This document shows, piece after piece, positions 7,826 to 64,000 of a stretch of 64,000 bases of DNA. The position numbers were made by a program, and so were the translations under genes. The first letter of the stretch is position 1; each line of letters opens with the position of its first letter. Below the pieces are notes generated by a model, which was not told where the DNA came from, ran no database searches, and saw only the letters and a program-made list of their open reading frames with translations. The DNA comes from Candidatus Daviesbacteria bacterium RIFCSPHIGHO2_02_FULL_43_12 (GTDB taxonomy: Bacteria; Patescibacteriota; Microgenomatia; Daviesbacterales; UBA10151): contig MFDD01000002.1 in the NCBI GenBank assembly GCA_001776775.1, positions 309,344 through 373,343 of the forward strand. The letters are read 5' to 3'.

Positions 7826-8868
7826 AACATTTAAAATCTCTGAAAAGATTTATTAACAAATTTACGATCATTGGGTTAATTGTACTTTTGGTCGGAGGAT
7901 TCTTTCTATTTGGTCGCCCAAAAAAACAAGATCCATTAACCTTTGCCAGCGTCCAAAGACAAACGATTAAAAGTACCATCTCCGCCTCTGGGATACTGAC
8001 TGGAAAGGCCTCGGCGAACTTGAAATTTAAATCCGGAGGGAAGATGAGCTATCTAGCTGTAAAAGTGGGTGACAATGTTAAAGCCGGGCAGCTAATTGCT
8101 AGCCTAGATACCAGGGATTTAAGTATTGCCCTCCAGCAAGCTGAAAACGACTACCGCTCCAAACAAGCTGCAGCTCAAAAAGTCGAAGATGATGTTAAGG
8201 ACCATTCCAAAGACGAGACCTTTACCCAACAACAAACCCGAACCGCTGCCCAAGCTGCCAGAGACAGTGCATTTGACGAGGTCAAAGCTGCCCGGCTCGC
8301 ATTCCAAAACGCCACTATTTTTGCACCAGTTGACGGCCTGATTACCCAGGCAGATTTTTTCCCAGGTCAGGTGGTATCGGCGTCCGACATTATCGTCAAA
8401 GTAGTTGATTTTTCGGAAACTATCTTTGAAGCGGATGTTGACGAATCGGATATCGGCAATATTAAAGTCGGACAAAAAGCCGACATTACTCTGAATACTT
8501 ATGGAGAAAAAGTCTTTCAAGGTGAGGTCGGACAGATTATTCCTCAAACAAAAACTATCAGTAGTGGGGCCACAGTGGTGACTGTACGCATTACCATCAA
8601 AGACTCAAGTATCGCCTTGATCGCTAACCTTAACGGCCAGGCCAATATTATTACCGCCCAAGAAAGTAGCGTGCTTGTTATTCCTCAAGAAGCCTTAAAA
8701 AACGAAGACACAGCCTTGGTCAAAGACGGAGATAGTATCCGCTCAGTCCAGATTAAAGTCGGAATAAGGTCGGATACAGAAGTGGAGGTGGTCTCTGGCC
8801 TGACGGAAAATCAGACCGTAGTCACCAACCCCTCTGTCTTTAAGGGTAACCAAAAGACAGGTTTGTAA
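7822..8868 (+). CDS. HlyD/MacA-family periplasmic adaptor (membrane fusion protein)
   Basis: N-terminal TM anchor, a coiled-coil hairpin region (AENDYRSKQAAAQKVEDD...), and a beta-barrel/lipoyl-like C-terminal half. It precedes a MacB-like ATPase and permease. Confidence 0.75.
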   Translation: MKHLKSLKRFINKFTIIGLIVLLVGGFFLFGRPKKQDPLTFASVQRQTIKSTISASGILTGKASANLKFKSGGKMSYLAVKVGDNVKAGQLIASLDTRDLSIALQQAENDYRSKQAAAQKVEDDVKDHSKDETFTQQQTRTAAQAARDSAFDEVKAARLAFQNATIFAPVDGLITQADFFPGQVVSASDIIVKVVDFSETIFEADVDESDIGNIKVGQKADITLNTYGEKVFQGEVGQIIPQTKTISSGATVVTVRITIKDSSIALIANLNGQANIITAQESSVLVIPQEALKNEDTALVKDGDSIRSVQIKVGIRSDTEVEVVSGLTENQTVVTNPSVFKGNQKTGL

Positions 8869-47398: not shown

Positions 47399-47472
47399 GA
47401 CCCCATCGTCTAGTGGTCTAGGACGTCGGATTCTCATTCCGAAAATCGCGGGTTCGACTCCCGCTGGGGTCA
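47399..47472 (+). tRNA. tRNA-Glu (anticodon CUC)
   Basis: Manual fold: 7-bp acceptor GACCCCA/TGGGGTC, anticodon stem TCGGA/TCCGA with loop TTCTCAT (CTC), T-arm GCGGG-TTCGACT-CCCGC, discriminator A. CCA is not encoded. Confidence 0.85.
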
Positions 47473-47546
47473 CCCAGCTCAGCTGGGTGTAAATCGAGCT
47501 CAGCTCGATCACTTTACTCAGCTCGGTGGATGTCAGCTCAGCTGAC
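47471..47546. repeat. array of about 4 tandem ~20-bp units, each with a palindromic AGCTCAGCT core (iteron-like)
   Basis: Perfect palindromes CACCCAGCTCAGCTGGGTG (47471-47489), ATCGAGCTCAGCTCGAT (47493-47509) and GTCAGCTCAGCTGAC (47532-47546), plus a degenerate unit CTCAGCTCGG at about 47518. Centre-to-centre spacing is about 18-21 bp. The array starts in the last 2 nt of the tRNA. Confidence 0.8.
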
Positions 47547-54144: not shown

Positions 54145-56550
54145 TTATGCTAATGCTGGGGGTGGATTATGGGGAATCCTTTTAATCGTGCCTCCAAATG
54201 GCGGACGAATCAGCGCCAGTCCGAGTACCTCGTCAACATGTTTAACAAAATGAAACTCTAAATCCTTCATTACAAAGCTGGGAATATCTTCAAGGTCTTT
54301 TTGATTAGAGATTGGGGCAATTACCAGCTTAACCCCCGCCCGATGGGCTGCCAATACTTTTTCTTTAAATCCACCAATCTCCAAGGCCCTTCCCCGCAAG
54401 GTAACCTCCCCTGTCATCGCGATATCTTTGCGGACAGGGATCTTGGTAAAGGCAGAGACAATGGCGGTCGTTAAAGCCAGTCCGGCAGATGGACCATCTT
54501 TGGGTATCGCCCCCTCTGGAACATGAACATGCACATCGGTTTTATGGAAAAATCTCTCGGGCAGTCCCAGCTTGTTCCAGTTAGAGCGGACGTAAGACAT
54601 CGCTGCTTGAGCTGATTCCTTCATCACATCTCCCAGTTGTCCGGTCAATTGAACCTGGCCTTTTCCCGGCATCAGGGTGACTTCAATAAACAGGATATCT
54701 CCTCCGGCCTCAGTGACGGATAGGCCCGTGACAGCTCCTACCATATCTTCTATCTCTGCTAGTTGCGGCAGGAACTTGATCGGACCCAAGAGTTTGGTTA
54801 CTTCTTCAGCATCGATGGTATAAGTCTTGGTTTTGTCACCCTCCGCAATTTTTCGGGCGATTTTACGGATCACTCCAGAGATCTCTCGTTCTAGTCCTCT
54901 GACCCCTGCCTCGCGGGTATAGCTTTCAATAATCCGATAGAGGGCGCCGTCCTGAAATTGAATAAGATTGTTTTTGATGCCATGAGACTCAAAAAGCTTG
55001 GGCAATAAAAAGTTTCGCGCAATATGGAATTTTTCTTCATGGGTATACCCCGGATAGCGAATGACTTCCAGTCGATCTCTGAGGGCTGGGGGGATAGTAT
55101 CCAGGATATTGGCCGTAGTTATAAACATCACATTTGACAAATCAAAGGGAACCTCTAAATAGTGATCAGAGAAAGATCCATTTTGTTCAGGGTCAAGAGC
55201 TTCCAGCAGGGCTGCAGAAGGGTCTCCTCTGTAGTCTGCTCCAATTTTGTCAATCTCGTCGAGCATAAAAACCGGATTAGTAGTACCCGATTGTTTGATC
55301 GACTGAATAATCCGACCGGGCATAGAGCCAACATAAGTCCGGCGATGGCCGCGAATCTCCGCCTCGTCACGAATACCACCCAAAGAGACTTTCACAAATT
55401 TGCGGCCCAAAGCCTTGGCAATAGATTTACCAATCGAGGTCTTACCAGTTCCCGGGGGACCGGCAAAACAGAGAATTGGGCCACGGATCTTTCCGGCCAG
55501 CTTATGAACTGCTAAGTATTCCAGCACTCGTTCTTTGACCTTCTTGAGGCCGTAATGATCACTGTCCAAGACTACCTCAGCCTTTTTCATATCAACTTTA
55601 AGCTTTCCCGTGACTTTCCATGGCAGATCGGTTAACCACTCTAAATAGTTACGGATATATCCAGCCTCAGGGTTGTAGCTGGACATTTTGGCTAAACGAG
55701 ACAGCTCTTTGTTGGCTTTTGCCCGAACCTCCAGGGGCATGCCGACTTTGCGGATTTTTAGTTCGAATTCACGAATCTCTTGATTCTCGGTCGATTCTCC
55801 CAGCTCCTCCTCGATACTACGCATCTGCTCGCGCAAGATGGCCTCTTTAGTCATCCGTGAAACCCGTTCCTGAGTATTAGAAGAGATCTTACGCGAGATT
55901 TCTAAGATTCTTACTTCTTTAGCCAATATTTCCGATAGGCGACGCAGACGGTCGACCGCTGAAATCATCTCCAAGATCTGCTGTTTGTCAATAGTTTTAA
56001 AATCAATAGCCTGACACACCAGATTGACCAACTGGTTTGGGTCATCATTGGCCGAAAGTAGCGAAATATTTGATAGCCCAACTGGATCAAATAAGGGGTT
56101 GCCGCCTAATTCCAGGTAACGGCGAAGTTGTTCGCGGACTGTCCGTAGCATGGCTTCGGTCTCTTCATTTTTTTCATAGAGTTCGGGGATCTCTTCTATA
56201 TCAGCCACAAAAAAAGGCTCTGTCTGGACATATCTTTTAATATACACCCGCACCAGTCCTTCGGCAGAAACTTGGTATTCTCCATCTACTTTGATAATCC
56301 GCCGAATCAAACAAACTGTCCCTACTTGAAAAAGATCGTGTTCGGTAGGGTCGTCAATCCGGTCATTTTTTTGGGTCACAAAAACAATTAATCGGTCGGT
56401 GGCATAAGCACTGTCGAGCGCAGTTTTAGACTTGAGACGCCCGGAGACGATCGGGACATTATTGCTAGGGAAAATAACCGTTCCGCGTAACGGAGCAACT
56501 GGTAAGCTAGAGCGTAATTTAAGTGGCTGGGCGGTAGGGTCTAATGCCAT
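54145..56550 (-). CDS. lon: ATP-dependent Lon protease (LonA)
   Basis: Lon N-domain, AAA+ Walker [10 protein letters not shown], Walker B MLDEIDK, and the protease domain with catalytic S in [10 protein letters not shown] and a downstream K. Confidence 0.95.
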
Positions 56551-56611: not shown

Positions 56612-59600
56612 TCAATAGGTTTTGAGTTCTAATAAATTATCAATATTGTATTTTCCTTGTGAGCGTACTCCTCCAGCTGAATCTACATAAATTTTTGGCG
56701 CTTTTGAAGCGAATGAAGTAAGCTGGAAACCTTCCGGAACTTCTCTTGCTTCAAAACCTGAGGGTATATCTGCTGTCACTTTCTGACCTTGTTCGTTCTG
56801 AGCTTGCTGACTGATAAAAAGTCGCATTCCCATCGCTGTAGCTTTTTTATGAGCATGAGTAAACACACTTTTTAAAACACCTTCCGCAGCAACTGCAGAG
56901 TAATTTCTTTCAATATGTAGGCTTGGATTACCGTCAGGGTCGGCCAGAATGCGAAAGACCGCTCTGGAAATTAAATTTCCATTTGCGTTTCGCAAAATAA
57001 TCATCTTGCTATTAGCATCAAAATACCCCAGCAAACAATCATTGTGACTACCATGACTATAATGTTGACAAGAAGCAACAGGTTTATCTCCTATCTCCAG
57101 GGTTACCTGAGGATCGCTTGAGTCAGTACAAACTAACCTTTGCCTAGTACCGGTTTGACTTTGAAATCCTAATAGATATTGGTTTATCCTCTCGAAAACA
57201 AAATTCGCTCGAGGGAGCTGACTTGATAATCTATCTGATAATGCACCTAGCGGCTCACTCCTTTTTGCTAACTCATCACCTTCTAATAGATAGCCCTCAA
57301 CTACCTCCTGCGGCTTAAGCGTCAACAACCTTAAGATATCTCTGCTTAAAGCAAGTTTATCTCTTAGGGCTTGAAGCGCTGTTCTTTGCACCCTTAAATC
57401 CGCGAGCTCTCGATCAATCGCCTCTCTGTCAGATGGATCATCATGTTTTGCCCTAGCTAAACGACCCAGCTCACCTTGCCTAGTTCCAATAGCTCCAAGC
57501 TGAACCCCTACCTTCGTTAGTTCTTCTCTTGCTTGATTAAGCAACTGAGAAAAAGGTGTTTCAGGTAAATCAAAGAGTTCTAAATCCAAGTGATCTTGAT
57601 TGTCGATAATGACCTGTCTAATCGCATGCGAAACGGCAGAAGCGTCCGAATCTAAGACCTCACTTAAAGGAGTTTCGTCATCTGTCCGCCAAGTATCATA
57701 TTGTTTATTTGATAAGAGTTTCGGAAGTAACTGGGCTTCTTTCAATTCCTCTAGGGCTTCATCATTTCGCTGCCCAAATTTCCATTCGTTAAATCGACCG
57801 TCTAACAAAGCTTCGAACAGCCCTTTTAAAACACCAACATGTCTGTCTGATTTTTCGTATTGTAAATAATATAAAGTAAAGGGGCCAGGGGTGCCCATAG
57901 TGGAAAAAAATCTTTGAGCTTGTGTAGCAGTTATCTCTCTTGATAAACCCATTCTTTTGGTGATTTCTTGTAAAAGAATCACCCTTGACTCTTCCAACGA
58001 TTCCCCGAGTGTACTAATCTGAGCAAATCTTTCAGGATCGCTTTGCTTAAACAGAGCGAAACAGTAAAAGATGGCTAGAGCTTCTTCCTCTTTTGCCTTG
58101 ATAAAACCGTCTTTAGGCCGAATCGTATTAAAGTCAGCTGATAGGTTGGCTAAACGAATTGCATTGATTGAGGTATATACCTCTTTTGCATCAATAATCA
58201 TTGAACGCCTTGAGGCTCTATCGGTAGTTCTTAAAATATCATTATAGAATTCTCTTAAAGTTATCGGCGCATAAGCTACCAATACATCATTTGCACTCCC
58301 CATAGAGACTATCTCTTCCTGGGATTGAATGACATCAAAACGACTCACCTCATTAAAGTGTTCTAGGGCCGCGGGAGGATTTATTGCTATACAGTCACCC
58401 AGCAAGGCCCTTCTTTTTCCGGGTGGAACATGTTCCCACCAGTGAAGATTAGATAACAGGCGTTCTGTATATCGAGCCTTATACTGATCGAGAAATTGAA
58501 AAACATCCTCCTTGGTTAGCACGCTTCCCCACCCTCTAATCCCATCGATACAAGCCCCAAACCCCCGTTCATTATCTGCAATATCTTCTATAAAGCCCTT
58601 TGTTTCTTCTGGGGTATAAAGATAACTAAATTGATCGAAACTGGCGACTAATCCATAGGGGTCAATGATTGCAGCGTGGTCGAGAAAGCCCCTTAGCTGA
58701 TCATCTCCTCCCAAAAATTCTCTGATAGCAGTGGCCTCCCTAAAGGCTCTCGTAACCCCTCTTTCCTGCTGATCTTCTAGGTGTCTTTCTATTTCCTCTT
58801 TAGAAAAAAGGCCTCCTAGTGCACCATTTAAATAACAGCGGATAAAAGCATAGTCATTTTCTCTGCTAATAATGTCATCCAGCATCGTTTTATGAACATC
58901 TGGTCCTCCAGAAATATAACCTATCCAACTCGGGGCTTTTTCCAGTAAAAATAATGACATTGCTTCGGGAATAATACTCCTGACTGCTGCCTCTTGCTCG
59001 GTAGGACTACGTCCTTCCACTGCTAGATCGATGATAAATACTGCTGAGGTTGGGAAGTCGAAGATCAAAGTATCTTGAATTTGTCTTTTTTCGGCAGGGG
59101 TTAGGATATCTCCATGCAATAGATCCCTCAAGACAGCTTCAGAGTAGTGATCTCCATGAAAGAATTCCTTATTTTTTGTTCGAATCGCTTCTCTAGCTAG
59201 TGCCCCTACCTCGTCTGGATCTAAAACATCACGCATTGCCTCCCATCCTCTGGCAATTTGATCAGGTTTCTTCGCGATAATTTCATATATCAGCGATGCC
59301 TGTTCCTCCTTAGTAAAAACAGCTTTCGCTGGATCAAACGTCCAAAGTTGAATCGCTCGGTCGTCATCTCGGGTATATGCAGCTCTGATTGCTTCCTTTA
59401 AATCACCCCTTTGCTCATCTGAAAAAAATTTTAAATGCTCTGAAACATCTCCAAGACTACCTTGCGCTCTTGGTATTGAAGCAATAATTAATACGGGAAC
59501 TTCAGAAGACTGAAGTATCCTTCTTCTTATAAGACCCTGTACTATAGCTGCCTGAAAGTCATTTGGTAGGGCTTTAAGGCAGGCTTCATGCACATAATTT

Positions 59601-60361
59601 CTCACTTCCTCATCCGTAAATAAACCTGCGTTATCATAATAAAAAAGACTGAGAGCGGCTGTACCCCTAGGATCGGCCTCCAAACCCTGTTCAATTAAAA
59701 GACGTCGCTCTGCTTCGGTATAGAATGTATTCGGACGAAAAAGATAAGTTAACGCTATCATAGGATCCTTAGCTAGAGCCACATCTAAGATTCCTCTTGT
59801 CGCCTCCTCAGGTAATAGTCCCGAAAACTCTTCTATTCGACGAATCACATCAGAGGGTTTTCGAGCTGCTCCTTCCCTTAATAAAGCGACGAAACTCGCT
59901 TCAGATTTAGCTCCTTCTTTTACCTGCTGTTCGGAAAATAGTCTATTTAAATAAGTCAGTCCTGGTGTGCTAGGGTACTCCATATTGTCTAAAACTTTAG
60001 TAGCTAGTGGAGAACTAAATTCAACTGAACTAAGCACAGCCTCTCTTATCGAGACCCCTTGAGGCTCTTCAGTACGTGCTCTGGCTTGATCAGCCGTGGT
60101 TTTAATTTGGGGAGCTTGTTCCCTTCTGACTTGTCTAAGTGCTTTTACGAAAGCCTCATAGTCCTCTGACGATCTCGAATAACCCCTGGTCGCAATCCTG
60201 TCTTGATGCAACGCATCTCTTAGCTCTCTAGGCGAGAGGTCCAAAAGAGGATTTTCAGTAGCTGGATAACCATGTCCTAGCTTAATCTCTGTATTGGCTA
60301 GTCTTTGCTGGGCTAATCTCTGTTCACGAGTTTTATGGACTATCACTGGCCTTTTTTCCAT
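56612..60361 (-). CDS. very large soluble hypothetical protein (1249 aa)
   Basis: Uninterrupted ORF with no TM segment, P-loop or recognisable catalytic motif. Its GC is lower (about 38%) than the flanking lon and cobO genes. A 19-nt palindrome lies 24 nt upstream of its start. Confidence 0.5.
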   Translation of the reverse strand: MEKRPVIVHKTREQRLAQQRLANTEIKLGHGYPATENPLLDLSPRELRDALHQDRIATRGYSRSSEDYEAFVKALRQVRREQAPQIKTTADQARARTEEPQGVSIREAVLSSVEFSSPLATKVLDNMEYPSTPGLTYLNRLFSEQQVKEGAKSEASFVALLREGAARKPSDVIRRIEEFSGLLPEEATRGILDVALAKDPMIALTYLFRPNTFYTEAERRLLIEQGLEADPRGTAALSLFYYDNAGLFTDEEVRNYVHEACLKALPNDFQAAIVQGLIRRRILQSSEVPVLIIASIPRAQGSLGDVSEHLKFFSDEQRGDLKEAIRAAYTRDDDRAIQLWTFDPAKAVFTKEEQASLIYEIIAKKPDQIARGWEAMRDVLDPDEVGALAREAIRTKNKEFFHGDHYSEAVLRDLLHGDILTPAEKRQIQDTLIFDFPTSAVFIIDLAVEGRSPTEQEAAVRSIIPEAMSLFLLEKAPSWIGYISGGPDVHKTMLDDIISRENDYAFIRCYLNGALGGLFSKEEIERHLEDQQERGVTRAFREATAIREFLGGDDQLRGFLDHAAIIDPYGLVASFDQFSYLYTPEETKGFIEDIADNERGFGACIDGIRGWGSVLTKEDVFQFLDQYKARYTERLLSNLHWWEHVPPGKRRALLGDCIAINPPAALEHFNEVSRFDVIQSQEEIVSMGSANDVLVAYAPITLREFYNDILRTTDRASRRSMIIDAKEVYTSINAIRLANLSADFNTIRPKDGFIKAKEEEALAIFYCFALFKQSDPERFAQISTLGESLEESRVILLQEITKRMGLSREITATQAQRFFSTMGTPGPFTLYYLQYEKSDRHVGVLKGLFEALLDGRFNEWKFGQRNDEALEELKEAQLLPKLLSNKQYDTWRTDDETPLSEVLDSDASAVSHAIRQVIIDNQDHLDLELFDLPETPFSQLLNQAREELTKVGVQLGAIGTRQGELGRLARAKHDDPSDREAIDRELADLRVQRTALQALRDKLALSRDILRLLTLKPQEVVEGYLLEGDELAKRSEPLGALSDRLSSQLPRANFVFERINQYLLGFQSQTGTRQRLVCTDSSDPQVTLEIGDKPVASCQHYSHGSHNDCLLGYFDANSKMIILRNANGNLISRAVFRILADPDGNPSLHIERNYSAVAAEGVLKSVFTHAHKKATAMGMRLFISQQAQNEQGQKVTADIPSGFEAREVPEGFQLTSFASKAPKIYVDSAGGVRSQGKYNIDNLLELKTY

Positions 60362-60416: not shown

Positions 60417-60965
60417 TTAATAGTCAATTCCTTCTTTAGCCAAGATTCCCTGTTGGTAAGGGTGTTTAATTTGGACCATCTCGGTTACCAAATCAGCCAG
60501 TTCAAAAAGCTCTTTTTGGCCATGATGGCCAGTCAGCACTAGATCCATTTGGGTTGGTTTATCTTGGATTAATCTTTTAACTTGCTCAAATTCCACTACC
60601 TTACCGGCAATCGCCCCAACTATCTCATCAGCGACTATAATATCCCATTTTCCAGACACCGCTTCCTTATATAGATATGTATAAGTCGCGTGGGCGGCTT
60701 TAAGATGTTCCTCAAATGGAGCATGGTCATCAAAGATGCCAATAAACCCCAGTCCTCCTTGAACTAACTTGACGTACGGAGAGAGTTTTTTAACCCCTTC
60801 TATCTCCCCGGTAAACCATTGTTTACCAAACTGGACAATTAGAACTTTTTTCTTATACCCCGCTGCCCGAAGCACCAAACCCAAGGCGGCAGTAGTTTTA
60901 CCTTTACCCTCTCCGGTATAGACAATGACTAATCCTTTTTTAGCTTCCTGAAATTTGGATTTCAT
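60417..60965 (-). CDS. cobO: cob(I)alamin adenosyltransferase (CobO/BtuR/PduO-independent CobA type)
   Basis: P-loop-like VIVYTGEGKGKTTAALGL, followed by the conserved DE acidic pair and GHH block (VLTGHHGQ) of CobA-type adenosyltransferases, 182 aa. Confidence 0.75.
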   Translation of the reverse strand: MKSKFQEAKKGLVIVYTGEGKGKTTAALGLVLRAAGYKKKVLIVQFGKQWFTGEIEGVKKLSPYVKLVQGGLGFIGIFDDHAPFEEHLKAAHATYTYLYKEAVSGKWDIIVADEIVGAIAGKVVEFEQVKRLIQDKPTQMDLVLTGHHGQKELFELADLVTEMVQIKHPYQQGILAKEGIDY

Positions 60966-61040: not shown

Positions 61041-64000
61041 TTAACACTTAGAATAACCACAGGAGTAGCATTTTTGACAGCCTTCTTCCATCACAAAAGT
61101 CGAATTACCACATTCGGGGCAGAGATCCCCGGATTGAGTTTCTCTTGGCGAGAGCGTTAACATCGGCATCTGTTCAGCTATTTCAGGAACAATCACTGGG
61201 TCTACTTCGGTTTTATGAGTCCCCAAACCATTGGTATGCAAGATAGGTTCGCTGTGTGACTCCTGCAAACTAAGCGGGACTTGTTCTGGCTTTTCGGCTT
61301 CGGTAATCGCCATATCTTCGGCTAAAACTTTGGCAATTGCATCAGCCAAACTCATCACCCGGTCTTTACCAAAACCAATATGTGAAGATCCACCAATCCC
61401 CCGCAGCTGCTGAACGATCTTTGTAGCTATCTCTCGGCGATTGTCTCCCGAGTAACGCAAGGTCATCGAGATTAACCTGCCCAAAGCTTCGGCATCAGCC
61501 ATGGTATGAGATCCACCTTTTGCCACAGTGATAAAGACTTCAAAGGGTTGGTCTTTGTCATCCCTGTTGATAGTGATAAACCCTTCTCCCAGAGGGGTGG
61601 TTACTTTGTAAGTTCGACCCCGTAGCACCATCGGCCGATGAACCGGAGCCGGAACAACTGGTTCAACCTTTTTTTCCTTGTCCTCCGCAGCTTTAATGGA
61701 GGGGGATTCAACTCTTTCTAGTACCCCTTGGCGGGAACCGTCGCGCATATAAGTAATACCCTTTAAGCCCACGTCATAGGCGGCCATATACAAACTCTGC
61801 ACATCATCTACAGTATGGTTGTTGGGAGCGTTAACAGTCTTGGAGATCGACGAGTCGATATACTCCTGAGCAATAGCCTGAACCTTAACATGCTCCCAGG
61901 GAGTTAAGTCATTGGCCGACACAAAATAGTCAGGCTTTTGGCTTCCCGGATTGTCTTTACGCCATTGGTCAAAAAGAGGATGATAAATGATCTCCTCTCC
62001 TCCTCTCCAGCGGCGAAGAAATGAAAATTCATAAACTGGCTCGACTCCAGAGCTGACTCCGGAAACCAAGGAAGTAGTACCGGTAGGCGCAATGGTCAAA
62101 AGTACGGCATTGCGGATACCTTGGGTGGCAATTTTTGCCCGGATTGGTTCAGGCAGCTGCTTAATATGATACCCCTGCAAATATTTTTCCTTGTCAAATA
62201 ATGGGAAGGACCCTTTTTCCTTGGCATTATCCGCGGATGCTTCGTAGGCACTGTCTCGAAGAGTCTGGAAGATCTGACGGATTACCGGCTCTGATTCCGG
62301 GGATCCATAGCGTAACTTCATTTTAATCAAAGCATCGGCCAAACCCATGATCCCTAGGCCGGTCCGGCGAATGTTTTTGGCACAGTCTTCGTTTTCAGGA
62401 AAGAAATAATAAGTTTGATCAATCACATTATCCATTAACCGCATGGCCACTTTAACGTCTTGGCCAAAACTTTCAAAATCAAATCTTGCTTCGCCATCAG
62501 GCGAGTGATTTTCCGTAACATAAGCTGATAGATTCATCGCCCCCAAGTTACAAACCGCCCACGGCCCCAACGGCTGCTCTCCACAATTGCCCGTAATACA
62601 ACCATTTATATAAAAGCAGTGTGTCTGATCATAGACCGAAATGTCCCAGACATCTTCTTGAAGAACAGTCTTTTCAACTGCAGTAATCCTTACTAATCCT
62701 GCATCGGCCTCTTTGCGAGATGGATTATATTCAGAAACTATTTTTAGTAAATTCTGTTGTTTCCTATTGTGAGAAAGAGTAAACATTCTCCCAAAATTAA
62801 CTGCATTATATCCATCCATTGAAACATCATACCGTTCATACGTCTTGTAATAGTTCTTCCCATTTGGAAACCTTACATTAGATGCTTCTTCACGACGTAT
62901 ACGAGCTTTAATCCCAAAAAAGCTCAATAAATCTTGTACATCCTCGGCCATCTTTTTATGCTTGGTCGTAAAAACAACGCGTCTGGCATCTTTACTTACA
63001 AATCCATCTGAGCTAAACAGTCCATCTATGAATCCTTCTATAAATTCGGTCCCTGATTGCCAAACGGAACTTGGTATGCCATTTTCCTTTTTATTTATAT
63101 CAAACAAGTTAAATAGGTTTTCAGCAAAGAGAGAGGAGGTTGACTGTATAGTATAGGTGTTATCGCCTGCTCTGGTTAGGGTACTTTTTTCTTTCTTGAG
63201 TTTATTAACTTCTTGAAGAACTGCGTCTGCCAAGGGCTTATCTTCTTCGGAAAAAAGAAAGCCAAACGACAAATCATTTAGTGGCAGTTGTTTTTCCAAT
63301 TGATTACTACTTATGGCCTGATGGGACATTGGTTGATTATCAAGACCATTAATTAATAAGCCTTCACCAGCTGTCATATATACAGGGGAAGATGAAGCAG
63401 CTCTTCTATCCACATGTGTGATCGAACTCAACATGGATTTGCCTCTTTGTGTAATCCATCCGTCACCATATAACCAACCCAACATAAACCCCTGTGCACG
63501 GGATCGTTTTGTGACTGACTCAAATTGGATATGCTCTACCTTCGGAAAAGGTAAGATATTTCCAATTTGCAAGTTATCAGTAGTAACTTTTCCAAAACCT
63601 CCACCAACTGAAAGAGTTGGCCATTTATGTTCAGCTGTGGCATATATTTCCCTGCCATTGTTCAAACTGACTTTGTATAAAGTTTTATTTTTCCCTGAAA
63701 GAAAACACTCAGCCAAGGACCATTCTCCATTTAAGTTTTTTACATAAAACCTTTTTTTATCGAGACTCTCTATTGGAAAGATGCCTTCTTTAGTTAGAAC
63801 TTTAGTGCCAGCTCTCAGTGACGGATTTGTGGCTACCAGTCTCTCAAAATACCAGGTGTTGGAACGGGCATTAGAGCGCTCCAAAAAATGTAGTCCCGGC
63901 TCGGCCGATCTCCAGGCTGCTTCACAGATTAAATCCCAAAGGTATTTAGCCTTGACGGTCTTATAGACCTTAACTGTTCCACCTTGAGCTTTCCAGGAAT
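61041..64000 (-). CDS. nrdJ: adenosylcobalamin-dependent (class II, NrdJ-like) ribonucleotide reductase, interrupted by an intein; N-terminus lies beyond window end
   Basis: The frame is open to position 64000 with no stop. Listed ORF start 63884 (a TTG) is internal. Exteins splice to the active-site motif NP|CGEQPL. The C-extein has SKTVNAP...GLKGITYMRDGSR (a class II hallmark) and a C-terminal CxxC...CxxC zinc ribbon. Confidence 0.8.
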   Translation of the reverse strand, partial: SWKAQGGTVKVYKTVKAKYLWDLICEAAWRSAEPGLHFLERSNARSNTWYFERLVATNPSLRAGTKVLTKEGIFPIESLDKKRFYVKNLNGEWSLAECFLSGKNKTLYKVSLNNGREIYATAEHKWPTLSVGGGFGKVTTDNLQIGNILPFPKVEHIQFESVTKRSRAQGFMLGWLYGDGWITQRGKSMLSSITHVDRRAASSSPVYMTAGEGLLINGLDNQPMSHQAISSNQLEKQLPLNDLSFGFLFSEEDKPLADAVLQEVNKLKKEKSTLTRAGDNTYTIQSTSSLFAENLFNLFDINKKENGIPSSVWQSGTEFIEGFIDGLFSSDGFVSKDARRVVFTTKHKKMAEDVQDLLSFFGIKARIRREEASNVRFPNGKNYYKTYERYDVSMDGYNAVNFGRMFTLSHNRKQQNLLKIVSEYNPSRKEADAGLVRITAVEKTVLQEDVWDISVYDQTHCFYINGCITGNCGEQPLGPWAVCNLGAMNLSAYVTENHSPDGEARFDFESFGQDVKVAMRLMDNVIDQTYYFFPENEDCAKNIRRTGLGIMGLADALIKMKLRYGSPESEPVIRQIFQTLRDSAYEASADNAKEKGSFPLFDKEKYLQGYHIKQLPEPIRAKIATQGIRNAVLLTIAPTGTTSLVSGVSSGVEPVYEFSFLRRWRGGEEIIYHPLFDQWRKDNPGSQKPDYFVSANDLTPWEHVKVQAIAQEYIDSSISKTVNAPNNHTVDDVQSLYMAAYDVGLKGITYMRDGSRQGVLERVESPSIKAAEDKEKKVEPVVPAPVHRPMVLRGRTYKVTTPLGEGFITINRDDKDQPFEVFITVAKGGSHTMADAEALGRLISMTLRYSGDNRREIATKIVQQLRGIGGSSHIGFGKDRVMSLADAIAKVLAEDMAITEAEKPEQVPLSLQESHSEPILHTNGLGTHKTEVDPVIVPEIAEQMPMLTLSPRETQSGDLCPECGNSTFVMEEGCQKCYSCGYSKC
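62586..63821 (-). mobile_element. intein (412 aa) with LAGLIDADG homing-endonuclease domain inserted at the RNR NPCGE active site
   Basis: Starts with S (NP|SLRAGTKVLTKEG, block A-like). Two LAGLIDADG motifs (LGWLYGDGW and EGFIDGLFSSDG). C-terminal block VYDQTHCFYINGCITGN followed by the +1 Cys of CGEQ. Confidence 0.8.

What the first reader, a model, noticed from the sequence alone, without database searches (positions are those of the whole stretch)
62586..63821. LAGLIDADG intein splitting the NPCGE active site of a class II ribonucleotide reductase, with a non-canonical Gly-Asn C-terminus
Removing residues S22-N433 of the listed ORF joins ...LVATNP to CGEQPL.... This regenerates the universally conserved RNR catalytic NPCGE motif, so this is a bona fide intein with two LAGLIDADG homing-endonuclease motifs. 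Two features are unusual. The intein starts with Ser rather than Cys. Its C-terminal block ends THCFYINGCITGN, where the usual penultimate His is replaced by Gly. Both affect the splicing mechanism and make it a useful natural variant. The host gene is truncated by the window edge, because its frame is open to nt 64000.
Basis: partly seen in the sequence, partly recalled or inferred. Interest (0 to 1): 0.6.

Follow-up and report, generated by a model that had tools for sequence, protein, structure and literature searches.

The report
Ser-start, Gly-Asn-end intein in B12 ribonucleotide reductase
A self-splicing protein insert (an intein with a homing endonuclease) sits directly before the catalytic cysteine of a B12-dependent ribonucleotide reductase; it is real, it occupies a well-known insertion site, and it belongs to a large, mostly phage-borne family that always pairs a serine start with a cysteine acceptor, a pairing the literature I could read reports for only one other intein.

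Summary
On the minus strand, window 62586-63821 encodes a 412-aa intein (SLRAGT…GCITGN). It lies between …ATNP and CGEQPL… of a class II RNR whose 5' end runs off the window. Removing it restores NPCGE, and the joined protein aligns without a gap to Thermotoga NrdJ. Pfam, NCBIfam and an AlphaFold model (pLDDT 83; best PDB match PI-PfuI) show a Hint domain plus a two-motif LAGLIDADG endonuclease.

The site is not new: it is described as the most frequent RNR intein insertion point. Ser1 and a penultimate Gly each have precedents.

The new finding is the family. Among 175 distinct relatives (phage contigs, Paceibacterota, Chloroflexi, haloarchaea), Pro-1 and Cys+1 were invariant wherever flanks were readable. 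Ser1, His B:10, Asp F:4 and the terminal Asn are invariant, Trp B:12 is in 173 and Gly G:6 in 169. The papers I could read call Ser1/Cys+1 known only from the GOS-TerL split intein.

The most likely mechanism is class 1 splicing through an oxyester-to-thioester transfer, with the block F His replacing the missing penultimate His. This is inferred, not shown.

Verdict: a genuine, probably active intein and a new member of an uncharacterised family. Interest is moderate.

The parts
63822..64000 (-). Visible end of the N-extein of nrdJ. It covers 59 complete codons, 63822-63998 (frame open to the window edge), and ends …FERLVATNP with Pro at -1.
   Evidence: Translation. Pfam Ribonuc_red_lgC at 1.5e-75 over the whole precursor. 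It is 78-83% identical to the same segment in L005-L007.
62586..63821 (-). Intein of 412 aa: a Hint splicing domain split by a LAGLIDADG homing endonuclease domain.
   Evidence: Pfam and NCBIfam hits. AlphaFold2 model with pLDDT 82.9 and pTM 0.82. Foldseek best matches are PI-PfuI 1dq3 (E 3.6e-18), the TliVMA intein and PI-SceI. GC3 is 30.6%, against 46.5-49.2% in the exteins.
63804..63821 (-). Block A, SLRAGT. Ser1 (codon 63819-63821) is the presumed first nucleophile.
   Evidence: Ser1 is present in 175 of 175 distinct family members and in 127 of 127 cluster representatives that were not selected on this residue.
63618..63641 (-). Block B, ATAEHKWP: Thr62 (B:7), His65 (B:10), Trp67 (B:12).
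   Evidence: Across the family: Thr or Ser in 175/175, His in 175/175, Trp in 173/175.
63456..63482 (-). LAGLIDADG motif 1, LGWLYGDGW, with the acidic residue Asp120.
   Evidence: The model places a helix at residues 108-118. Asp is present in 152/175 relatives.
63273..63440 (-). A 56-aa lineage-specific insert (residues 128-183) inside the endonuclease domain. It is predicted to be disordered and is hypervariable.
   Evidence: It is absent from most relatives. pLDDT is below 50 for residues 128-178. Identity to L005-L007 is 8-18% here, against 66-69% in the rest of the intein. It is not repeated elsewhere in the window.
63003..63032 (-). LAGLIDADG motif 2, FIDGLFSSDG, with the acidic residue Asp272.
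   Evidence: Pfam LAGLIDADG_3 covers residues 260-317. The model places a helix at 258-271. Asp is present in 155/175 relatives.
62586..62654 (-). Blocks F and G, DVWDISVYDQTHCFYINGCITGN: Asp393 (F:4), the block F His401, Thr410 (G:5), Gly411 (G:6, the usual His position) and Asn412 (G:7).
   Evidence: Across the family: Asp 175/175, His 170/175, Thr 170 and Ser 5, Gly 169/175, Asn 175/175. Block F His and G:6 covary.
61041..62585 (-). C-extein of nrdJ. It starts with Cys+1 (62583-62585), the thiyl-radical Cys of NPCGE. It contains the rest of the RNR barrel, a TSCPD domain and a Cys-rich C-terminal tail, and the range includes the stop codon.
   Evidence: Pfam Ribonuc_red_lgC and TSCPD. NCBIfam NrdJ_Z TIGR02504 scores 390 bits on the truncated spliced protein. 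PDB 1xje alignment.
60417..60965 (-). ATP:corrinoid adenosyltransferase (CobO/BtuR family), 75 nt downstream of nrdJ on the same strand. It probably supplies the adenosylcobalamin cofactor.
   Evidence: Pfam CobA_CobO_BtuR at 6.1e-52.

Best explanation
This is a genuine intein, probably able to splice. It carries a two-motif LAGLIDADG homing endonuclease and is inserted directly N-terminal to the thiyl-radical cysteine (NP|CGE) of an adenosylcobalamin-dependent ribonucleotide reductase. The host is probably a Patescibacteria-like bacterium.

Shown here: the exact in-frame insertion, the Hint plus LAGLIDADG architecture, and membership of a large family. That family is invariant at Ser1, His B:10, Asp F:4 and the C-terminal Asn, invariant at Pro-1 and Cys+1 wherever flanks could be read, and nearly invariant at Trp B:12, Thr G:5 and Gly G:6.

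Inferred mechanism, by class 1 splicing:
1. Ser1 makes an N-to-O acyl shift at the Pro-Ser bond, activated by Thr62, His65 and Asp393.
2. The catalytic Cys+1 takes the N-extein by an energetically uphill oxyester-to-thioester transfer.
3. Asn412 cyclises. The block F His401 assists in place of the missing penultimate His.
4. An S-to-N shift rebuilds NPCGE.

The endonuclease domain keeps both catalytic Asp residues. It presumably cuts intein-free nrdJ alleles and spreads the element, mostly among phage RNR genes.
For: Removal restores NPCGE, and the spliced protein aligns gaplessly to T. maritima NrdJ.

Domain and fold evidence: Pfam Intein_splicing, LAGLIDADG_3 and Hom_end; NCBIfam intein_Nterm above its cut-off; AF2 model with pLDDT 82.9, whose best PDB matches are the intein endonucleases PI-PfuI, TliVMA and PI-SceI.

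Family evidence: 280 cluster representatives score E<=1e-30. Of 127 complete ones, all have NP|S…N|C and 121 have a penultimate Gly. In 175 distinct sequences the catalytic positions are invariant or nearly so. A 260-aa form with most of the endonuclease deleted (L080, L081) keeps S1…MTGN|C, so splicing residues are selected independently of homing.

Compensation: block F His is present in 167 of 169 Gly-G:6 members, but is Asn in 3 of the 4 His-G:6 members. This fits published evidence that a block F His can replace the penultimate His (PMC5050341).

Precedents: a review (PMC11766414), summarising Bachmann and Mootz 2015, reports that the Ser1/Cys+1 GOS-TerL intein follows the class 1 route; I could not retrieve the primary paper. 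A natural penultimate-Gly intein splices well (PMC5050341).

The low GC3 of the intein relative to the exteins fits a mobile origin.
Against: No splicing or cleavage experiment exists for any member of this family.

The oxyester-to-thioester step is thermodynamically unfavourable. The NX-motif His that activates Ser1 in Ser1/Ser+1 inteins is absent: no conserved His lies upstream of block B.

Trp at B:12 and Thr at G:5 are signatures of class 3 inteins, which do not use residue 1. A non-His G:6 with Cys+1 recalls class 2.

The covariation of block F His with G:6 may rest on a single clade.

The 56-aa disordered insert after LAGLIDADG motif 1 could impair the endonuclease in this copy.
Confidence: 0.75

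Rival explanations
1. It is the same intein, but it splices by a class 2-like shortcut. Cys+1 attacks the Pro-Ser amide directly. Ser1 is not the nucleophile and serves only a structural or activating role.
For: This route avoids the uphill oxyester-to-thioester transfer. Class 2 KlbA inteins also combine a non-His G:6 with Cys+1 (PMC4031507). The only 'WDT' intein noted by Tori et al. (Arthrobacter FB24 helicase, Gly1) was provisionally placed in class 2 (PMC2807308). This family is uniformly W-D-T and lacks the NX-motif His of Ser1 oxyester inteins (PMC10189870).
Against: Ser1 is invariant in 175 of 175 members, with no Ala or Gly replacements. That is hard to explain if the hydroxyl is dispensable. 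A review reports that the only studied Ser1/Cys+1 intein follows the class 1 pathway (PMC11766414). The family is not related to KlbA hosts.
Confidence: 0.17
2. It is a decayed intein or a fixed insertion domain that no longer splices. The RNR would then be inactive or work with the insert in place.
For: The penultimate His is missing. An extra 56-aa disordered insert is present. No experiment has been done.
Against: The insert separates Pro from the radical Cys inside the active-site motif, so an unspliced enzyme could not work. Every known catalytic position is intact and conserved across 175 relatives. The reading frame is open throughout. Close relatives L005-L007 keep the intein at 66-69% identity, similar to the exteins, which indicates purifying selection. 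The adjacent adenosyltransferase gene suggests a working B12 RNR.
Confidence: 0.04
3. It is a class 3 (WCT-type) intein that uses an internal cysteine as its first nucleophile.
For: Trp at B:12 and Thr at G:5 match two of the three WCT positions. Cys39 is conserved in 166 of 175 members.
Against: F:4 is Asp in 175 of 175 members, never Cys. Residue 1 is a nucleophile. The +1 residue is Cys rather than Ser or Thr. Cys39 is replaced by Val, Ala or Phe in 9 members, as expected for a buried core residue.
Confidence: 0.02

Closest known systems
GOS-TerL split intein (Bachmann and Mootz 2015, as summarised in PMC11766414 and PMC10189870)
   Same: It has the same nucleophile pair, Ser1 with Cys+1. 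It is reported to follow the class 1 route through an oxyester and then a thioester. It also lacks the NX-motif His of Ser1/Ser+1 inteins.
   Different: GOS-TerL is a naturally split, atypically split mini-intein in a phage terminase and has no endonuclease. The window element is contiguous, sits in an RNR and carries a LAGLIDADG endonuclease.
PI-PfuI, a Pyrococcus furiosus RNR intein (PDB 1dq3)
   Same: It is the best structural and sequence match in the PDB (Foldseek E 3.6e-18; phmmer 2e-7). It has the same architecture, a Hint domain plus a two-motif LAGLIDADG endonuclease, and the same host enzyme type.
   Different: Identity is only about 14%. From memory, PI-PfuI starts with Cys and ends His-Asn; I did not check this here. 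Whether it shares the same insertion point was not verified.
RNR inteins inserted directly N-terminal to the thiyl-radical Cys, including NrdA split inteins (PMC2677866) and the canonical example found here in L015
   Same: The insertion point is identical. L015 (a Spirochaetes MAG) reads …STNP|CFHKDT…GIVCHN|CGEQPL and has a related LAGLIDADG domain (28% identity).
   Different: Those inteins use Cys1 and His-Asn, and L015 lacks Trp B:12 and Thr G:5. The window's family uses Ser1 and Gly-Asn. The allele name (rir1-b) comes from my memory and was not tested.
Mycobacteriophage Bethlehem gp51 (RDF) intein (PMC5050341)
   Same: It is a natural class 1 intein with a penultimate Gly. It splices efficiently, and restoring His slows it. 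It is phage-borne.
   Different: It uses Cys1, has a different host protein and is not related in sequence.
Class 2 KlbA inteins and the Arthrobacter FB24 helicase 'WDT' intein (PMC4031507, PMC2807308)
   Same: They share Cys+1 with a non-His G:6 (KlbA), and the Trp B:12, Asp F:4, Thr G:5 triplet (FB24).
   Different: Those inteins lack an N-terminal nucleophile (Ala1 or Gly1). Here Ser1 is invariant.

Membership tests
Intein (Hint-domain protein-splicing element) | An in-frame insertion in a conserved host protein whose precise removal restores a contiguous conserved sequence. | tested here: met
   Removal gives …ATNPCGEQPL…, which aligns gaplessly to T. maritima NrdJ 1xje (E 1e-47).
Intein (Hint-domain protein-splicing element) | Splicing blocks: A (Cys/Ser at position 1), B (TxxH), F, and G (C-terminal Asn followed by Cys/Ser/Thr at +1). 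| tested here: met
   Ser1, Thr62 and His65, Asp393 and His401, Asn412, and Cys+1 are present. They are conserved in 175 relatives. The usual penultimate His is Gly, which is a known tolerated exception (PMC5050341).
Intein (Hint-domain protein-splicing element) | Hint fold. | tested here: met
   Pfam Intein_splicing scores 41.3 bits (cut-off 35.8). NCBIfam intein_Nterm scores 27.5 bits (cut-off 24.5). The AF2 model matches PI-PfuI, PI-SceI and mini-inteins.
Intein (Hint-domain protein-splicing element) | Autocatalytic excision with ligation of the exteins. | not testable with these tools
   This needs expression of the precursor and detection of the spliced products.
LAGLIDADG homing endonuclease (single-chain, two-motif) | Two LAGLIDADG helices, each ending in an acidic residue, within two alpha-beta-beta-alpha-beta-beta-alpha half-domains. 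| tested here: met
   LGWLYGDGW (Asp120) and FIDGLFSSDG (Asp272) are present. Pfam LAGLIDADG_3 is 1.6e-15. Model helices lie at 108-118 and 258-271. Foldseek also matches I-DmoI and I-Tsp061I.
LAGLIDADG homing endonuclease (single-chain, two-motif) | Site-specific cleavage of the intein-free allele. | not testable with these tools
   A 56-aa disordered insert follows motif 1 in this copy, so activity is uncertain.
Class 1 inteins | An N-terminal Cys/Ser nucleophile, with Thr B:7, His B:10 and usually Asp F:4. | tested here: met
   Ser1, Thr62, His65 and Asp393 are present. Actual use of Ser1 as the nucleophile is inferred.
Class 2 (KlbA-type) inteins | No N-terminal nucleophile (Ala1), Ser at G:6, and orthology to KlbA inteins. 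| tested here: not met
   Residue 1 is Ser in 175/175 members, G:6 is Gly, and the hosts are RNR or a radical-SAM-like protein. Only Cys+1 is shared.
Class 3 (WCT) inteins | The Trp B:12, Cys F:4, Thr G:5 triplet, no N-terminal nucleophile, and usually Ser or Thr at +1. | tested here: not met
   Trp B:12 and Thr G:5 are present, but F:4 is Asp in 175/175 members, residue 1 is Ser and +1 is Cys.
Ser1/Ser+1(Thr+1) oxyester inteins with NX motif (PMC10189870) | A conserved [RK]-His NX motif upstream of block B, and Ser or Thr at +1. | tested here: not met
   This intein has no His in residues 1-64. No family column upstream of block B exceeds 22% His. The +1 residue is Cys.
Class II (adenosylcobalamin-dependent) ribonucleotide reductase, NrdJ | A match to NrdJ-specific models, the NPCGE thiyl-Cys motif, and no need for a radical-generating subunit. 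| tested here: met
   The best NCBIfam models are all B12-dependent RNRs. TIGR02504 scores 390.1 bits against a 399.95 cut-off on a protein missing about 228 N-terminal profile positions. The best PDB match is T. maritima NrdJ. A corrinoid adenosyltransferase gene is adjacent. Cofactor use itself was not tested.

The most novel reading that the evidence does not exclude
The window's intein may represent a large, unrecognised mechanistic sub-class of inteins. Its signature would be Pro-1 | Ser1, Trp B:12, Asp F:4, Thr G:5, Gly G:6, Asn | Cys+1. Such a sub-class would have either evolved a dedicated way to drive the uphill oxyester-to-thioester transfer without the NX His or the penultimate His, or would not use Ser1 as a nucleophile at all. 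Either way it would amount to a fourth signature class, one that specialises in 'NP|C' sites and has moved from RNRs into an unrelated radical-SAM-like protein.
Probability: 0.2. Interest if true: 0.6.

Novelty: new member of a known kind. Interest (0 to 1): 0.4.

Why it matters
For genome annotation the result is ordinary: an intein at the classic RNR active-site position.

The family behind it is more useful. There are at least 175 distinct natural sequences, and 280 representative clusters score E<=1e-30. All combine a serine first nucleophile with a cysteine acceptor, and nearly all lack the penultimate histidine. The papers I could read describe Ser1/Cys+1 as known only from the GOS-TerL split intein.

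This natural series, which includes a 260-aa mini form, gives protein chemists material for two questions. One is how inteins run the unfavourable oxyester-to-thioester step. The other is how they do without the penultimate His. It may also yield new cis-splicing or engineerable inteins whose first step is insensitive to thiol oxidation.

The family also illustrates how several mobile elements pile up at the RNR radical cysteine.

Tried and rejected
1. The 56-aa extra segment (residues 128-183) as a nested mobile element or repeat: rejected. It has no other copy in the window, it is predicted disordered, and it is present but hypervariable in the closest relatives.

2. The odd C-terminal tails of the closest protein hits, P0010 and P0011, as evidence for a frameshift or an insertion in the intein. 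Their contigs L001 and L002 share about 100 nt after 'GWISVRGT' and then continue into different neighbours. The tails resemble the hypervariable insert of L007. The contigs therefore most likely break inside that insert. This is not fully resolved.

3. Class 3 assignment suggested by Trp B:12 and Thr G:5: rejected, because F:4 is Asp throughout.

4. Cys39 as a hidden nucleophile: unlikely, because it is replaced by Val, Ala or Phe in 9 members.

5. An NX-motif His for Ser1 activation: absent.

6. Named cultured carriers: GenBank phages gave a single metagenomic hit.

7. The primary paper on GOS-TerL (Bachmann and Mootz 2015) could not be retrieved. I relied on two later papers that summarise it.

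8. Four literature searches found no description of a Ser1/Cys+1 RNR intein family. InBase itself could not be consulted.
Full report
**What is in the sequence**

The minus strand carries one long open frame from the window edge (64000) to a stop at 61041-61043. Its product is a ribonucleotide reductase large subunit: Pfam gives Ribonuc_red_lgC at 1.5e-75, plus a TSCPD domain and a Cys-rich C-terminal tail.

Residues S22 to N433 of the listed ORF correspond exactly to window 63821 down to 62586. The Ser1 codon is tca (63819-63821), the Asn412 codon is aat (62586-62588), and the next codon is tgt, Cys+1 (62583-62585).

**Is it an intein?**

- Deleting the 412 residues joins …FERLVATNP to CGEQPLGPWAVCNLG…. 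The joined protein aligns without a gap across the junction to Thermotoga maritima NrdJ (1xje, …STNPCGEIGLSDYEACNLG; E 1e-47).
- The insert alone matches Pfam Intein_splicing (41.3 bits, cut-off 35.8), LAGLIDADG_3 (1.6e-15) and Hom_end. It also matches NCBIfam intein_Nterm above its cut-off.
- An AlphaFold2 model built on 11 family sequences is confident (pLDDT 82.9, pTM 0.82).
- Its best PDB matches are intein endonucleases: PI-PfuI (E 3.6e-18), the TliVMA intein and PI-SceI. Free-standing LAGLIDADG enzymes and mini-inteins follow.
- The splicing blocks are readable:
  - Block A: SLRAGT.
  - Block B: ATAEHKWP (Thr62, His65, Trp67).
  - Block F: DVWDISV…THCF (Asp393, His401).
  - Block G: ITGN|C.
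- Both LAGLIDADG acidic residues are present (Asp120, Asp272).
- The intein has much lower GC3 (30.6%) than either extein (46.5-49.2%), as expected for a mobile insert.

**The host gene and its neighbours**

The spliced protein scores best against B12-dependent RNR models. NrdJ_Z TIGR02504 gives 390 bits even though about 228 N-terminal profile positions lie outside the window.

A corrinoid adenosyltransferase gene (CobO/BtuR, 6.1e-52) follows 75 nt downstream on the same strand. After it come a 1249-aa ORF with no Pfam match and a Lon protease. The small plus-strand ORFs that overlap the intein have no support.

The closest relatives of both intein and exteins are MAG contigs labelled Candidatus Paceibacterota and 'uncultured Gammaproteobacteria'. 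The window therefore probably comes from a Patescibacteria-like bacterium. This is an inference.

**The family**

The word-indexed protein search found only 19 relatives. A profile search of 1.84 billion representatives found far more: 280 at E<=1e-30, and the top 150 all below 1e-60. DNA-level scans added 15 genome loci and 67 viral contigs.

Of 127 complete inteins among the representatives, none of which was selected on its termini:
- All 127 read NP|S…N|C.
- The penultimate residue is Gly in 121, His in 4, Lys in 1 and Ser in 1.

In 175 distinct full-length sequences:

| Position | Conservation |
|---|---|
| Ser1 | 175/175 |
| B:7 Thr or Ser | 175/175 |
| His B:10 | 175/175 |
| Trp B:12 | 173/175 |
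| Asp F:4 | 175/175 |
| Block F His | 170/175 |
| G:5 Thr or Ser | 175/175 |
| Gly G:6 | 169/175 |
| Asn G:7 | 175/175 |

The viral and genome loci in this set were kept only if they started with Ser and ended with Asn. For those two positions the unselected count is the cleaner one.

Carriers include many uncultured phages, mostly in monomeric NrdJ (WGTNP|S…TGN|CCEI). They also include Chloroflexi, Smithella, Iamiaceae, Paceibacterota, and the haloarchaeon Natronomonas aquatica plus a Halobacteriales MAG.

A few members sit in an unrelated radical-SAM-like protein, again between NP and C (GGNP|C[MLT]xP). The Pfam Radical_SAM match there is 5.6e-5, below the gathering score.

A 260-aa form with most of the endonuclease deleted keeps S1…MTGN|C (L080, L081). 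This shows selection on splicing independent of homing.

In the window's own sub-lineage (L005-L007), the intein outside the insert is 66-69% identical. The C-extein is 58-62% identical. This suggests long co-residence with the host gene under purifying selection.

**The lineage-specific insert**

Residues 128-183 (window 63273-63440) lie just after LAGLIDADG motif 1 and are absent from most relatives. The segment is predicted to be disordered (pLDDT below 50). It is not repeated in the window. In L005-L007 it is retained at similar length but only 8-18% identity. I read it as an unconstrained loop. Whether it affects endonuclease activity is unknown.

**Comparison with what is known**

[quoted passage not shown] I also found a canonical Cys1…His-Asn|Cys LAGLIDADG intein at the same site in a Spirochaetes MAG (L015). 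So the site is not new.
- Ser1 is a standard alternative nucleophile (PMC4031507).
- A penultimate Gly occurs naturally. In the Bethlehem gp51 intein it gives faster splicing than His, and a block F His is thought to be able to take over (PMC5050341).
- The rare feature is the pair Ser1 with Cys+1. [quoted passage not shown] A 2025 review calls it the first intein with that pair, and describes the oxyester-to-thioester transfer as thermodynamically uphill (PMC11766414).
- Four full-text searches found no description of a Ser1/Cys+1 RNR intein family. InBase itself could not be checked.
- No solved structure is close. The best PDB sequence hit is PI-PfuI at 2e-7, over the endonuclease part only.

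**Mechanism**

The family does not fit the other defined classes:
- It fails class 3 because F:4 is Asp, not Cys, even though Trp B:12 and Thr G:5 match.
- It fails class 2 because residue 1 is an invariant Ser.
- It lacks the NX-motif His of Ser1/Ser+1 inteins. This intein has no His before His65, and no family column there exceeds 22% His.

The best-supported reading is therefore class 1 chemistry:
1. Ser1 forms an oxyester at the Pro-Ser bond.
2. Cys+1, which is also the RNR radical cysteine, takes the acyl group.
3. Asn412 cyclises with help from the block F His.
4. An S-to-N shift restores NPCGE.

One observation supports the compensation step. Block F His is present in 167 of 169 Gly-G:6 members but is Asn in 3 of the 4 His-G:6 members. 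Those three look like one clade, so this counts as roughly one evolutionary event.

The main rival is direct attack by Cys+1 (class 2-like). The invariance of Ser1 argues against it. All mechanistic steps are inferred; none is shown.

**Verdict**

As an object it is a new member of a known kind, at a well-known site. Its moderate interest comes from the large uncharacterised family it reveals. That family has fixed a nucleophile pair described only once before, and has lost the penultimate His.

Noticed in passing
L003:5157-12811 (JGI 3300028735 Ga0272446_1001614, a phage-like contig carrying relative P0001): Three self-splicing elements pile up within about 3 codons of the RNR radical Cys. 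First comes a full intein of the window's family (S1…ITGN). It is followed, with no extein residue between, by the N half of a split intein (CVAGDSLVEF…IIQA*). The C half of that split intein is a small ORF (7902-8042, …GMVVHN|CGEF*). A group I intron (Rfam RF00028, 8024-8240, 76.3 bits, E 1.7e-18) begins right after the CGE codons. Here the +1 nucleophile of the Ser1 intein is Cys1 of the next intein. P0002 and P0004 show the same junction.
   Followed up: partly
P0005, P0006, P0008, P0014, P0019 and L062: Members of the same intein family sit in an unrelated radical-SAM-like protein (CxxxCxxC; Pfam Radical_SAM 5.6e-5, below the cut-off). They again lie between NP and C (FGGNP|C[MLT]xP). This suggests ectopic spread to sites that offer the same Pro-1 and Cys+1 flanks.
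   Followed up: partly
L001:1289-1441 and L002:3290-3490 (contigs of the closest protein hits, P0011 and P0010): Both contigs follow the window's intein up to 'GWISVRGT' and share about 100 nt more. They then continue into different neighbours: reversed nrdR in one, and a repeat of the RNR 5' part in the other. The break falls inside the hypervariable insert. It is probably an assembly artefact, but this is not resolved.
   Followed up: partly
window 62586-63821 versus 61041-62585: The intein has GC3 of 30.6%, against 46.5-49.2% in the flanking exteins. This holds even though the intein appears to have co-diverged with the host gene in this lineage, so the composition has not equilibrated.
   Followed up: no
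window 56612-60361 (minus strand): A 1249-aa ORF has no Pfam match at E<=0.001. It lies between the corrinoid adenosyltransferase gene and a Lon protease gene (54145-56550).
   Followed up: no
P0068, P0070, P0104: These rare family members have a restored penultimate His (…THN|C). They have simultaneously lost the block F His (…[QD]NCF…). They look like a single clade.
   Followed up: partly
window 47399-47474 (plus strand): tRNA-Glu (CTC) is the only tRNA gene ARAGORN finds in the window.
   Followed up: no
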